DNA from: Gammaproteobacteria bacterium | Lineage (GTDB): Bacteria; Pseudomonadota; Gammaproteobacteria; JAURND01 | Assembly (NCBI GenBank): GCA_047601185.1 | Contig: JASGJS010000001.1 | Location: 1,217,305 to 1,281,304, forward strand | Reading direction: 5' to 3' | Length of the DNA stretch: 64,000 nucleotides | In this document: in pieces, positions 34,701-37,700 of the stretch | Position numbering within the stretch: the first letter of the stretch is position 1 | How the letters are laid out: each line of letters begins with the position of its first letter | Made by a program: the position numbers

Positions 34701-37700
34701 TTTAATTCAACCTGCCCTCGTTGCGTCAGAGAGCTGACGACGCCAATATCAAACAGAAAATATTTGGAGCGGGTAATGGCTTTTCGTTTGGTGGTCGCTA
34801 AAAAAGGTTTGACTGAAAAGCCCAGCAGCGTGTCATCTAATATGCCGAAATAACCTTCTAAGGTGCGAATGCTGACGCCACAGTCGCTGGAAATATTGGT
34901 ATGACTGATTTCCTCACCGTTACAAAGAGCCACGACTTCTAAGAACCGAATAAATCCTGATAAATTACGCGTTAAGGCTTCTGCTTGGATTTCTTCTTGT
35001 AAATAAGTGCCCACGTAAGCTGTCAGATATTCGTGTGCCGCTGGATTTCCATAGAATTCTGGCAGCCCCGTGGTGTTCAAATGCGTTAATAGCTCAAAAT
35101 GTGGAATTTCTTGAGAAATTAACGGTAATAACTGCGCTTGAAAGGCGCGTCCCGCTAATAAATTTGCGCCGCCTCTGCGCAATTTTCTCGCGCTACTGCC
35201 TGTCAACAAAAACGTTTGCTTTCTTTTCACAATGAGACGTTGCACTTCATCGAGTAAGATGGGGAATTTTTGAATTTCATCAATGACGACTAAGTCATCA
35301 GCTTTGGTTTCTTGACTGATTAAAGTCGGATCTCTCACCAGACGTTGAAAGGTGGAGGCATTGAGTAAATCGTAAATTTTAGCCTCTGGCAAAGTTTGCT
35401 CGATCAAAGTTCTTTTGCCGACACCCCGTGGACCCATGAGAAAGTAGCTTCTCTTTTTCAATAAATCCGCTAAGTTAAGATATCGAGTATACATCAGGTG
35501 TTCCTTTAAAATGGTTTGTCACAGCCAGCCAATCCTTACAAATTTACATACTCATGCCGATTATCATCATATTCGGCAAGTATTATGCCATTTAATTAAA
35601 ATTTTGGCAAGTTCAGACCCCATTTAAAATTGGCCATAAATTCATGCAAAGATTAGATAAAGCTTGCTGTAGTTCATAACTATTGACAAAGTTTTAACGA
35701 ACGATTATTATAGACATCAATAGGTTTTTCCATAAATCGAGTCAGCGTAGATGTTTAAAATCAACAATATAGTCACCCATAGCAATATTATTATCGCGAT
35801 TATTATTGGTCACGAGATGCGGGGCTATGTTTTTGAATAATGAAACATAGTGGGTCACCAACCCCCGCATCTTCAAAAGAAGGTGCGGGGGTTTTTTTTT
35901 AAGGTCATTTTATGCAAATAACAGGTGCAGCGGCTATTTTACAGGGGCTATTACGAGAAGGCGTAGACATTCTATTTGGTTACCCTGGGGGCACTATTAT
36001 GCCGACTTATGATGCACTATATGACGTGCGTTCTGAGCTCCGTCATATTTTAGTGCGTCATGAGCAGGGCGCTGTGCATGCCGCGCAAGGTTATGCGCGG
36101 GTGACTGGCAAGCCTGGTGTCTGTATCGTGACTTCGGGGCCTGGCGCAACCAATCTTATCACCGGCATTACCGACGCCATGTTGGATTCAACGCCCTTAG
36201 TTTGCATCACCGGGCAAGTTGCGAGTGAATTTTTAGGAACAGATGCCTTTCAAGAAGCCGATATTGTCGGGATTTCCTTGCCTGTGACGAAGTGGAGTTG
36301 TCAAATTACCCACGCTGCGGAAATCCCCGCCGCGATTGCTAAAGCATTTTTTATCGCTAAAAGTGGCAGACCGGGCCCGGTATTGCTGGATATCACCAAA
36401 GATGCTCAGTTTGCCAGCTTGGATTTTTCTTATCAGCCGTATGTGCCAGAGAACAAGCCCTTTTATCCTCATTGCAATCCATCCCTATTGCAGCAAGCCG
36501 CCGAACGCATTAATGCAGCGCAACGCCCGTATATACTTGCTGGCCAGGGTATTACATTGGCAAAAGCTGAGCTTGCTTTACAAGCTTTTGCTGAAAAAAT
36601 ACAAGCGCCCGTCGCTTGCACATTATTAGGACTATCGACCTTTCCTATGGACCACCCTTTGTATGCTGGCATGTTAGGGATGCATGGTAATTACGGCCCA
36701 AATTTATTAACGAATCAGGCTGATCTGATTATTGCCATTGGGATGCGGTTTGATGATAGAGTCACAGGCAACCTCAATCGCTATGCCAAACAAGCCAAAA
36801 TTATTCATATTGATATTGATCCGGCAGAAATCAATAAAAATGTGCCGGTTGATTTAGCATTAGTTGCTGATGCTAACGACGTTTTGCAAGCTTTAATGCC
36901 ATACCTTGAAGCCGATCGCCATAACAAACCACATGAACATTGGATCGAACAATTTCATGCCTGTCATAAAATTGAATATGACAAAATTATGCGCCAAGAA
37001 ATTAAATTTTTAGGAAAAAACATCAAGATGGCTCGGGTAATAAATGAATTATCTGAAAAAACCCCTCACCAAACGGTTATTGTCACAGATGTGGGCCAAC
37101 ATCAAATGGTTGCCGCGCGTTATTTTCAGTTTAAGCGACATAATTCGCTGGTGACTTCGGGTGGATTAGGGACCATGGGGTTTGCATTGCCCGCTGCCAT
37201 CGGCGCTAAATTAGGCCAACCGCAATGTGAAGTGATTGCCATTATTGGTGATGGCGGTTTTCAAATGAATATTCAAGAATTAGGTGTCATCGCCCAAGAA
37301 AATTTACCGGTAAAAATCGTGATCTTAAATAATAGTCATTTGGGGATGGTGCGACAATGGCAGGAATTATTTTTTGAGGAACGTTATTCTTTCGTGCAGT
37401 TAAAAAACCCTGATTTTGTCAAAATTGCCGAAGGTTATGGAATTGCTGGGCAAAGGGTAAGCGATGGTACAGAGCTTGATGCCGCATTAGAGACCTTATT
37501 GAATTATCCAGGACCTTACTTATTAGAAATAATGGTCGAAATGGAAGAAAACATTTTTCCGATGATTCCGGCAGGTTGTGGGGTGGGAGAAATTCGGTTG
37601 TCGTAGAGGTGAATGATGAAATATATTTTTGCTATATCGATACTCACTGAAAATGCTTTGCGCGTATTGCAGCGAATGGCAGGGATATTTGCGCGCTTTC

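What the first reader, a model, noticed from the sequence alone, without database searches (positions are those of the whole stretch)
35683..35914. Complete Ile-rich leader-peptide transcription attenuator in front of ilvB
All parts are readable. The sigma-70 promoter is TTGACA-17-TATTAT. A 29-codon leader ORF MFKINNIVTHSNIIIAIIIGHEMRGYVFE carries 8 Ile and 2 Val codons in clusters.

Its last codons contain GAGATGCGGGG, which can pair with the left arm of the terminator CCCCCGCATCTTC-aaaa-GAAGGTGCGGGGG-T9. The terminator ends 11 nt before the ilvB ATG.

This is a textbook ribosome-stalling attenuator but tuned to Ile, in an ilvBN-type operon. It also shows that this organism makes branched-chain amino acids, unlike the auxotrophic Legionella pneumophila.
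Basis: seen in the sequence. Interest (0 to 1): 0.5.

Follow-up and report, generated by a model that had tools for sequence, protein, structure and literature searches.

The report
Isoleucine-rich leader-peptide attenuator of ilv operon
A short isoleucine-rich leader gene with a switchable terminator sits before the branched-chain amino-acid operon of a Legionella-like bacterium; it is a real, conserved example of the classic ribosome-stalling attenuator, so well built but mechanistically ordinary.

Summary
These are TTGACA-17-TATTAT, a 29-codon leader ORF with 8 Ile, GAGATGCGGGG complementary to the terminator's left arm, and a 15-bp terminator with T9 ending 11 nt before the acetolactate synthase ATG.

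It is not chance. Twelve other distinct loci (ALS 57-76% identical) carry a leader ORF with an Ile/Leu/Val run. Their RNA shows the same three-way pairing logic: 1:2, 2:3 antiterminator, 3:4 terminator. The antiterminator and terminator helices are 92% and 88% paired across 11 sequences, with compensatory changes. The region-2 nucleotides are conserved although they are read in two different frames.

Folding with a ribosome masked on Ile codons 13-17 leaves the full 11-bp antiterminator free.

The best explanation is classical ribosome-mediated transcription attenuation. No Rfam family matches, so it is a new member of a known kind.

The only twist is that relatives have mixed Ile/Val/Leu leaders, whereas this one is Ile-dominated (6 of 7 consecutive codons, no Leu). 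This is not explained by base composition.

The operon is ilvB-ilvN-ilvC-(ThrC-like/LeuA-domain fusion)-ilvD, not E. coli-type ilvBN. That uncharacterised fusion in the ilvA slot is the more interesting lead.

The parts
35683..35688 (+). -35 hexamer TTGACA
   Evidence: A TTGAC(A/T) box lies at a similar distance upstream of the leader ATG in L081, L083, L088, L090, L174, L024 and L149 (sequences).
35706..35711 (+). -10 hexamer TATTAT, 17-nt spacer; the transcription start is inferred near 35718
   Evidence: 11 of 12 positions match. The start site is inferred, not measured.
35751..35840 (+). Leader ORF, 29 codons plus TAA: MFKINNIVTHSNIIIAIIIGHEMRGYVFE
   Evidence: Homologous leader ORFs occur in 12 other distinct loci. 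There is only a weak Shine-Dalgarno-like GAG upstream.
35787..35807 (+). Regulatory codon run, codons 13-19 (Ile Ile Ile Ala Ile Ile Ile)
   Evidence: codon list. A ribosome masked at codons 13-17 leaves the full antiterminator free; at codons 18-19 it is partly blocked.
35766..35784 (+). Region 1: AAUAUAGUC..CC....GCA, pairs with region 2 (anti-antiterminator, possibly a pause hairpin)
   Evidence: Minimum-free-energy folds. The 1:2 domain is -17.8 kcal/mol. An equivalent 1:2 helix appears in L081, L083 and L088 at -22 to -26 kcal/mol.
35814..35831 (+). Region 2. GAGAUGCGGGG (35814-35824) pairs with region 3. UGCGGGGCUAUGUU (35818-35831) pairs with region 1.
35824..35851 (+). Middle hairpin (CUAUGUUU / AAACAUAG) nested inside the antiterminator; the leader stop codon 35838-35840 lies in its loop
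   Evidence: -10.0 kcal/mol. A hairpin built from different sequence occupies the same place in relatives, with the stop codon inside it.
35860..35874 (+). Region 3: the terminator's 5' arm AACCCCCGCAUCUUC. Positions 35863-35873 alternatively pair with region 2 (11 pairs, one G-U).
35879..35900 (+). Region 4: the terminator's 3' arm GAAGGUGCGGGGGUU, plus the T9 tract (35892-35900)
   Evidence: 15 pairs, 9 G-C, loop of 4. (-28.5 kcal/mol)..
35912..37606 (+). Acetolactate synthase large subunit (ilvB/ilvG type), 564 aa
   Evidence: TIGR00118, 715.7 bits against a cut-off of 538.
37613..37870 (+). ACT-only acetolactate synthase small subunit, 85 aa
   Evidence: PF22629, 44.7 bits. The NCBIfam hits are below their cut-offs.
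38054..39106 (+). Ketol-acid reductoisomerase ilvC, 350 aa
   Evidence: TIGR00465, 317.7 bits against a cut-off of 226.
39103..40899 (+). ThrC-family PLP enzyme fused to a LeuA allosteric domain, 598 aa, in the position where ilvA usually sits
41088..42761 (+). Dihydroxy-acid dehydratase ilvD, 557 aa
   Evidence: TIGR00110, 773.9 bits against a cut-off of 618.

Best explanation
This is a classical ribosome-mediated (leader-peptide) transcription attenuator for a five-gene ilv operon.

How it works (inferred):
- Transcription starts about 33 nt upstream of a 29-codon leader ORF.
- With ample charged tRNA-Ile, the ribosome runs through the Ile run and over region 2 to the stop codon. That stop lies in the loop of a small hairpin between regions 2 and 3.
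- Region 2 is then occupied, or after ribosome release it is captured by region 1. Region 3 pairs with region 4, and RNA polymerase terminates at the T9 tract 11 nt before ilvB.
- When tRNA-Ile charging is low, the ribosome stalls in codons 13-17. It covers region 1 and leaves GAGAUGCGGGG free to pair with CCCCGCAUCUU as that sequence emerges.
- This antiterminator pre-empts the terminator, and the operon is read through.

Shown here: the sequence elements, the mutually exclusive helices and their energies, their conservation and covariation in relatives, and the geometry of ribosome footprints.

Inferred here: the transcription start, actual termination and read-through, the pause, and the specificity for Ile over Val and Leu.
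For: The elements are at the stated coordinates.

Three competing structures:
- 1:2 domain, -17.8 kcal/mol; 2:3 domain, -29.9; terminator, -28.5.
- The minimum-free-energy structure of the growing transcript switches from 1:2, to 2:3 (3' end at 35868-35886), to 1:2 plus 3:4.

Ribosome masks:
- A-site on Ile13-Ile17 gives the full 11-bp antiterminator.
- Ile18-19 gives a partial antiterminator.
- Val27 gives no antiterminator.

Homologous leaders lie upstream of ALS in 12 other distinct loci, each with an Ile/Leu/Val run followed by [A/G]UGCGG(G), CCCGCA and a terminator. They are L081, L083, L088, L090, L091, L172, L173, L174, L006, L024, L149 and L004. L089 adds a TTG-start candidate.

Pairing across 11 sequences:
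- Antiterminator: 91.7% of cells paired, against 37-58% when the partners are slid. Column 9-65 is G-C in 9 sequences and A-U in 2, a compensatory change.
- Terminator: 88.1% paired, against 38-53% when slid. Four pairs have changes on both sides.
- RNAalifold independently predicts the terminator.

Other points:
- The region-2 nucleotides GAGGUGCGG are conserved but read as ..EVRG.. in one subgroup and ..RCGP.. in another. The constraint is therefore on the RNA.
- Nine of 12 terminators carry an internal mismatch next to a position that is perfectly paired in the antiterminator.
- A covariance model built on regions 2-4 also finds L089 and L024, which were not in the model's training set, at 46 and 33 bits. 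It finds only this one site in the window.
- Established precedent: ilvB and ilvBNC leader-peptide attenuation in E. coli and Corynebacterium (PMC10272879).
Against: - There is no transcript data, so termination and read-through are not shown.
- The leader has only a weak Shine-Dalgarno-like sequence.
- With a 30-nt footprint, a ribosome parked at the stop codon covers only the last 2 nt of region 2. In silico, 9 bp of the antiterminator can still form. Termination under Ile sufficiency therefore has to rely on steric exclusion, on timing, or on region 1 recapturing region 2.
- The window's terminator is the most stable of the family. It could displace the antiterminator by strand invasion.
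- In Streptomyces coelicolor, substituting the presumed regulatory codons of an ilvB leader had no effect on regulation (PMC1262725). Resemblance alone is therefore not proof.
- Two close relatives (L085, L087) have no leader at all.
Confidence: 0.85

Rival explanations
1. The attenuator is real, but it is a multivalent or general translation-stress sensor like its relatives, not Ile-specific. On this reading the Ile bias of the leader is neutral drift among interchangeable hydrophobic codons.
For: - All 12 relatives have mixed Ile/Val/Leu runs.
- Val8 lies in region 1, and a stall there also frees the antiterminator in silico.
- Ile, Val and Leu codons interconvert by single substitutions. 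Alignment A2 shows CTT to ATT and GTG to ATT changes at homologous codons.
Against: - Only one Val and no Leu codon precede region 2, so Val or Leu starvation has almost nothing to act on.
- Window G+C (41.5%) equals that of relatives (40-43%) that keep Val and Leu codons, so there is no compositional drive.
- Six Ile in 7 codons arose in only 2 of 3000 shuffles.
Confidence: 0.2
2. The terminator is regulated by something other than ribosome stalling. Candidates are a riboswitch (for example, the ppGpp class found before some ilvB genes), a protein or a small RNA. The small ORF would then be incidental.
For: - ppGpp riboswitches precede ilvB in some bacteria (PMC10272879).
- In S. coelicolor, codon substitutions in the ilvB leader had no effect (PMC1262725).
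Against: - No Rfam family reaches its threshold in the window or in 35500-36000. The best hit is PyrR at 22 bits against a gathering score of 54, and it matches the terminator only.
- What is conserved across distant relatives is an in-frame start-to-stop ORF with an Ile/Leu/Val codon run, not an aptamer-like fold.
Confidence: 0.07
3. The main product is the short terminated RNA or its 29-aa hydrophobic peptide acting in trans. The precedent is rnTrpL/peTrpL of Sinorhizobium. Cis control of ilv would be secondary.
For: Attenuator-derived small RNAs and leader peptides with trans functions are documented (PMC7298713 and PMC7968998, listed).
Against: - The peptide sequence is not conserved beyond its Ile/Leu/Val content, and its C-terminus shifts frame between relatives.
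- The element is always immediately upstream of ALS.
- This reading is not exclusive of cis attenuation.
Confidence: 0.03
4. The arrangement is a chance juxtaposition or a decaying relic. The (ATT)n-like run would be a slippage product next to an ordinary hairpin.
For: The Ile run is made of ATT repeats in an A+T-rich (35% G+C) spacer.
Against: - The full architecture is conserved with compensatory changes in 12 other loci.
- A divergent upstream gene leaves no other role for a strong terminator placed between a promoter and a start codon.
- Fold z-score is -5.6.
Confidence: 0.02

Closest known systems
E. coli ilvGMEDA leader (ilvL) attenuator
   Same: A leader peptide with a run of branched-chain codons. 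Regions 1:2, 2:3 and 3:4 are mutually exclusive. An intrinsic terminator lies just before the first ilv gene. The operon starts with an acetolactate synthase and a small (~85-aa) regulatory subunit, and also contains ilvD. (Own knowledge of the E. coli system.)
   Different: - ilvL mixes Ile, Val and Leu codons (multivalent). Here Ile dominates and Leu is absent.
- There is no sequence similarity.
- Gene content differs: ilvC and a ThrC-like fusion replace ilvE and ilvA.
E. coli ilvBN leader (ivbL) and the ilvBNC leaders and 'ilvB-II motif' of Corynebacterium and other Actinobacteria
   Same: An upstream ORF enriched in branched-chain codons, plus a terminator and antiterminator, in front of ilvB (PMC10272879; PMC1262725). 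Both here and in C. glutamicum the leader lacks a good ribosome-binding site (title of the Morbach et al. 2000 reference).
   Different: - ivbL is rich in Val and Leu, with no Ile (own knowledge).
- The actinobacterial leaders have a different sequence and structure.
- No Rfam model for any of these matched here.
E. coli thr operon leader (thrL)
   Same: Ile codons are used as regulatory codons for an operon that feeds the Ile pathway. This is relevant because the present operon contains a threonine-synthase-family gene. (Own knowledge.)
   Different: thrL combines Thr and Ile codons. Here there is a single Thr codon. The Rfam Thr_leader model was not among the matches.
Ile/Leu/Val-rich leaders at the 5' end of Bacteroidota ilv operons (found here)
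   Same: Short ORFs followed by a terminator, about 1.9 kb upstream of ALS and therefore before ilvD. Examples are MQINTIISSIINVIVIITDAGEMV (L145, 8 Ile, no Leu) and MQISIIIISVVVVNVIHTSASGML (L076). The window's ALS is about 60% identical to the Bacteroidota enzymes.
   Different: They lie before ilvD rather than ilvB, and the pairing core sequence differs. The covariance-model hits are weak (15-37 bits), mostly to the terminator.

Membership tests
Ribosome-mediated (leader-peptide) transcription attenuator | A short ORF with start and stop codons between the promoter and the first structural gene | tested here: met
   ORF 35751-35840 lies downstream of TTGACA-17-TATTAT and upstream of ALS. 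Homologous ORFs occur in 12 other loci.
Ribosome-mediated (leader-peptide) transcription attenuator | A cluster of codons for the amino acid(s) made by the operon | tested here: met
   There are 8 Ile among 29 codons, with 6 of 7 at codons 13-19. The operon encodes ALS, KARI and DHAD. Such a run arose in 2 of 3000 shuffles.
Ribosome-mediated (leader-peptide) transcription attenuator | An intrinsic terminator between the leader ORF and the first gene | tested here: met
   A 15-bp stem with T9, -28.5 kcal/mol. It is conserved, with 88% of cells paired and 4 covarying pairs.
Ribosome-mediated (leader-peptide) transcription attenuator | An antiterminator helix that uses the terminator's 5' arm and is mutually exclusive with the terminator | tested here: met
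   35814-35824 pairs with 35863-35873 (11 bp). 92% of cells are paired across 11 sequences, with an A-U / G-C compensatory column.
Ribosome-mediated (leader-peptide) transcription attenuator | Geometry: a ribosome stalled on the regulatory codons frees the antiterminator, and a ribosome that completes the ORF prevents it | tested here: inconclusive
   The first half is met: masks at Ile13-17 give the full antiterminator. The second half is only partly met: a footprint at the stop codon covers 2 nt of region 2, so the block must be steric, kinetic or via the 1:2 pairing.
Ribosome-mediated (leader-peptide) transcription attenuator | An anti-antiterminator (1:2) pairing upstream | tested here: met
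   The 1:2 domain is -17.8 kcal/mol here and -22 to -26 kcal/mol in L081, L083 and L088. Changes in this helix are one-sided (wobble-compatible); none are double.
Ribosome-mediated (leader-peptide) transcription attenuator | A short terminated transcript, and read-through that responds to tRNA charging | not testable with these tools
   This needs term-seq, reporter or in vitro transcription-translation experiments.
Rfam amino-acid leader families (His_leader, Thr_leader, Leu_leader, Trp_leader, Phe_leader and others) | A score at or above the family's gathering threshold | tested here: not met
   His_leader scores 20.4 against 49, and Phe_leader 16 against 55. No family passes in the window apart from one tRNA.
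E. coli-type ilvBN operon | A two-gene operon (ilvB, ilvN) with a Val/Leu leader | tested here: not met
   There are five genes through ilvD, and the leader is Ile-rich with no Leu.
ppGpp (ykkC-type) or other riboswitch upstream of ilvB | A match to the conserved aptamer | tested here: not met
   No such Rfam match, even at E <= 10, in 35500-36000.

The most novel reading that the evidence does not exclude
A Legionellales-like intracellular lineage may have re-tuned an ancestrally multivalent Ile/Val/Leu attenuator into an Ile-only sensor. The operon it controls has, in its 'ilvA slot', an uncharacterised ThrC-family enzyme fused to a LeuA-type allosteric domain. That enzyme might make 2-oxobutyrate (from threonine or O-phosphohomoserine) under branched-chain feedback control. 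Attenuator and enzyme together would form a dedicated isoleucine-supply module with a non-canonical entry step.
Probability: 0.15. Interest if true: 0.55.

Novelty: new member of a known kind. Interest (0 to 1): 0.25.

Why it matters
The mechanism has been textbook since the 1970s-80s, so its presence is not surprising. Three points give it modest value.

1. It documents a conserved, unannotated family of ilv leaders that no Rfam model covers. The family occurs in Legionellales-like and other uncultured proteobacteria, and it shows clean covariation.

2. It shows that a host-associated relative of the BCAA-auxotrophic L. pneumophila keeps an ilv operon. On this reading the operon is under amino-acid-responsive control.

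3. The shift from mixed Ile/Val/Leu codons to nearly pure Ile, among otherwise homologous leaders, is a natural experiment on attenuator specificity.

The ThrC-LeuA_dimer gene it controls is a better candidate for new biology than the attenuator itself.

Tried and rejected
- **Rfam.** A scan of the whole window and a permissive scan of 35500-36000 found no family. The sub-threshold hits match only the terminator hairpin.
- **Exact look-up of the window's ALS.** It is not on record (one search failed on a coordinate error).
- **GTDB scan with ALS and metagenome scan with ALS.** Only L004, L006, L024, L092 and L149 were useful.
- **Metagenome DNA pattern CGAGRTGCGGGGCTRTGT-N(15-45)-CCCCGCA.** It gave 0 hits (one search was a syntax error). 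No closer relative with an Ile-only leader could be retrieved. The closest relative seen (P0122, 83% identity on the ThrC-like protein) could not be fetched because look-ups were exhausted.
- **A+T drift as the cause of Ile enrichment.** Rejected: window G+C is 41.5%, against 40-43% in relatives that keep Val and Leu codons.
- **My own hairpin-plus-T shuffle count.** It has an indexing artefact (a spurious 'stem 16' class) and is not used.
- **First MAFFT alignments (A1, A2).** They misplace region 3 of L081 and L083. Pair counts were therefore made on anchor-registered sequences and on alignment A3.
- **An apparent double compensatory change in helix 1:2.** On checking the register, the changes are one-sided and wobble-compatible. 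It is not claimed.
- **Thermodynamic folding of the complete transcript.** It always favours the terminator, whatever the ribosome mask. The argument for antitermination is therefore kinetic, as in the trp model, not thermodynamic.
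Full report
**Observation.** The sequence reads exactly as described.
- TTGACA is at 35683-35688, followed by a 17-nt spacer and TATTAT at 35706-35711. This is the top promoter-like site in 34-44 kb, matching 11 of 12 positions.
- An ATG-to-TAA ORF at 35751-35840 encodes MFKINNIVTHSNIIIAIIIGHEMRGYVFE, with 8 Ile and 2 Val.
- GAGATGCGGGG lies at 35814-35824.
- A hairpin at 35860-35893 has 15 pairs (9 G-C) and an AAAA loop, and runs into T9 at 35892-35900.
- AAGG follows at 35901-35904, and the ATG of a 564-aa biosynthetic acetolactate synthase is at 35912 (TIGR00118, 716 bits).
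- The upstream gene (34355-35494) is on the other strand and divergent. The terminator therefore lies between a promoter and the gene that promoter should express.
- The 194-nt leader folds far better than shuffles (z = -5.6).
- An ORF with 6 Ile in 7 codons arose in 2 of 3000 dinucleotide shuffles of the spacer.

**Context.** Downstream lie five genes:
- the ALS large subunit;
- an 85-aa ACT-only ALS small subunit;
- ilvC;
- a 598-aa protein with a threonine-synthase-family PLP domain and a C-terminal LeuA allosteric domain;
- ilvD.

The operon is therefore not E. coli-type ilvBN. The window comes from a 1.71-Mb contig of an uncultured gammaproteobacterium. It carries IcmF/DotU and Sel1, U-box and ankyrin proteins.

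**Alternative structures.** Three mutually exclusive structures exist.
- Region 1 (35766-35784) pairs with region 2 (35818-35831); the domain is -17.8 kcal/mol.
- Region 2 (35814-35824) pairs with region 3 (35863-35873). This makes 11 pairs enclosing a small hairpin at 35824-35851 whose loop holds the leader stop codon; the domain is -29.9 kcal/mol.
- Regions 3 and 4 form the terminator (-28.5 kcal/mol).

As the transcript is lengthened in silico, the minimum-energy structure is first 1:2. It switches to 2:3 while the 3' end is at 35868-35886. It becomes 1:2 plus the terminator once region 4 is out.

Masking a 30-nt ribosome footprint gives the following results:
- A-site on Ile13-17: the full antiterminator is free.
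- Ile18-19: the antiterminator is partly blocked.
- Val27: the antiterminator is abolished.
- Stop codon: only 2 nt of region 2 are covered.

Because of that last result, termination under Ile sufficiency must depend on one of three things: the ribosome's passage over region 2, steric exclusion within the 38-nt enclosed segment, or recapture by region 1. This is the weakest step of the model and is inferred, not shown. The complete transcript always prefers the terminator thermodynamically. As in the trp paradigm, the switch has to be kinetic.

**Comparative evidence.** Relatives of the ALS at 57-76% identity were recovered. Upstream of ALS, 12 other distinct loci carry a leader ORF with an Ile/Leu/Val run, followed by [A/G]UGCGG(G), CCCGCA and a terminator:

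| Locus | Leader peptide |
|---|---|
| L081 | MSYFKNPVLRIINLIVVVILSREVRGCVLK |
| L083 | MSSYKNIAIRIFNLIIVVILSREVRGCVLKR |
| L088 | MSSNKNIVVRIINLIIVVILSREVRGCVLKR |
| L174 | MFKSLNSIVRIINLLVVVITPTRCGPVS |
| L172 | MSKNIVNRIINLVLVVLIITMRCGPMS |
| L173 | MSNNVVVRIINIIIVVVISHTRCGPMS |
| L090 | MLQLKKNAVQNLISLIVVVLIISTLRCGPTF |
| L091 | MSHTHKLISVLLHNIIVVVIIRNIRCGS |

L006, L024, L149 and L004 (Fluviispira) make up the rest.

- The nucleotides GAGGUGCGG are conserved, yet they are translated as EVRG in one subgroup and RCGP in another. The constraint is therefore on the RNA, not the peptide.
- On an 11-sequence alignment the antiterminator is 91.7% paired, against 37-58% for slid controls. One column is G-C in nine sequences and A-U in the window and L090.
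- The terminator is 88.1% paired, against 38-53% for slid controls, with four pairs changed on both sides.
- RNAalifold recovers the terminator independently.
- A recurrent design feature: 9 of 12 terminators carry one internal mismatch, at or beside a position that is perfectly paired in the antiterminator. The window has a G-U there.
- A covariance model of regions 2-4 finds L089 and L024, which were not in the model's training set, and finds only this one site in the window.
- Two close relatives lack a leader altogether: L085, where ilvBN follows asd, and L087.

**Ile tuning.** Every relative has a mixed Ile/Val/Leu run, which is the multivalent pattern. The window has Ile at 6 of 7 consecutive codons, one Val before region 2, and no Leu.
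- Alignment A2 shows that the homologous codons changed by point substitution (CTT to ATT, GTG to ATT or GCG).
- G+C is the same in the window (41.5%) and in the relatives (40-43%), so composition does not explain the change.
- Ile-specific sensing is thus a sensible inference, but it is untested.
- Ile-heavy, Leu-free leaders also exist elsewhere. An example is L145, MQINTIISSIINVIVIITDAGEMV, at the head of a Bacteroidota ilv operon. The trait is therefore not unique.

**Comparison with known systems.** Leader-peptide attenuation of ilvB or ilvBNC is established in E. coli and C. glutamicum. It is predicted widely in Actinobacteria (PMC10272879; PMC1262725).
- The same literature warns that in S. 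coelicolor, substituting the regulatory codons had no effect.
- No Rfam family, including His, Phe and the other leader models, reaches its threshold here.
- The element meets every sequence-level criterion of the class except a clean occlusion of region 2 at the stop codon. The functional criteria cannot be tested with these tools.
- It is a new member of a known kind.

**Side finding.** The ThrC-family/LeuA_dimer protein at 39103-40899 occupies the ilvA slot.
- Its PLP domain aligns with Bacillus subtilis threonine synthase (248 bits).
- Orthologues sit in the same slot in L081, L083, L087 and L174 (fused), and in L172 and L173 (unfused; 61% identity for L172).
- More than 100 clusters share the two-domain architecture, all named merely 'threonine synthase'. 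They come from Legionellales, Francisellaceae (Fangia, Facilibium, Cysteiniphilum, Francisella sp.) and Burkholderiales MAGs.
- I found no paper on this fusion.
- ThrC enzymes that also deaminate threonine to 2-oxobutyrate have been reported (PMC12172450).
- Its role is open. It could be a feedback-regulated threonine synthase or a 2-oxobutyrate-forming IlvA substitute.

**Verdict.** The mechanism is ordinary but the example is complete and conserved. Interest is 0.25.

Noticed in passing
window 39103-40899 (+): A 598-aa protein with a threonine-synthase-family PLP domain and a C-terminal LeuA allosteric (LeuA_dimer) domain. It sits between ilvC and ilvD, where ilvA would be expected. It is conserved in that slot in relatives, either fused or as a 421-424-aa unfused form. 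The family is widespread in Legionellales, Francisellaceae and Burkholderiales and is annotated only as 'threonine synthase'. No literature was found. The motif STGNMAAS replaces the STGNTSAA of B. subtilis ThrC.
   Followed up: partly
window 37885-38029: A 35-nt inverted repeat (97% complementary, arms 75 nt apart) fills most of the 183-nt gap between the ALS small subunit and ilvC. It looks like a MITE-like insertion or a long mRNA hairpin inside the operon. No T run follows it. It occurs once in the window.
   Followed up: partly
window 40913-41034; also 141-163, 18968-18990, 24710-24732; L087 upstream of ALS: A REP-like palindrome, CCTTCTCCC-N5-GGGAGAAGG, occurs 4 times in the window against 0.01 expected. 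Three tandem ~31-nt repeat units containing it lie in the gap between the ThrC-like gene and ilvD. The same palindrome sits in the leaderless ALS upstream region of relative L087.
   Followed up: partly
window 19031-22941 (-), 10534-12177, 12742-14715, 27452-28717, 32092-33024, 61041-63587: Hallmarks of a Legionellales-like intracellular bacterium: IcmF and DotU, several Sel1-repeat proteins (one with a U-box domain) and an ankyrin-repeat protein. Relative L085 has an ankyrin protein with a faint T4SS_AnkD hit.
   Followed up: no
window 33038-34261 (-), 34355-35494 (-), 48603-49883 (+): Three paralogous AAA_14 + DUF4143 ATPase genes. Two are in tandem immediately upstream of, and divergent from, the ilv leader.
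   Followed up: no
L145:2000-2210, L021:3960-4170, L076:4030-4240, L061, L020, L159, L056: Bacteroidota ilv operons have their own Ile/Leu/Val-rich leader ORFs plus terminators about 1.9 kb upstream of ALS, before ilvD. Examples are MQINTIISSIINVIVIITDAGEMV and MQISIIIISVVVVNVIHTSASGML. Other leader types lie directly before ALS: MNRLFSQIIVVLITH in L093, L096 and L097, and MNFLNNNISVVVVSSLG in L109 and L111.
   Followed up: partly
window 35912-37606 versus L001-L080: Outside its own small clade (65-76% identity), the window's ALS is closest to Bacteroidota enzymes (about 57-61%). Legionella brunensis ALS is 63% identical. This hints at horizontal acquisition of the operon.
   Followed up: no
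L081, L083, L088, L172-L174, L091, L090, L006 terminators: The terminator stems of relatives carry a conserved single internal mismatch, at or next to a position that is perfectly paired in the antiterminator. It appears to be a built-in weakening of the terminator. The window has a G-U there and the most stable terminator of the set.
   Followed up: yes
L081:9409-10200; L081:12123-13085; L083:11112-12062: Relatives insert extra genes into the same operon: an acetolactate decarboxylase in L081, and an SBF-family transporter before ilvD in L081 and L083. In L088 the ThrC-like, SBF and ilvD genes are called in fragments, which suggests pseudogenes or assembly errors.
   Followed up: no
window 16682-16754 (-): This tRNA gene is the only Rfam match in the window at gathering thresholds.
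   Followed up: no
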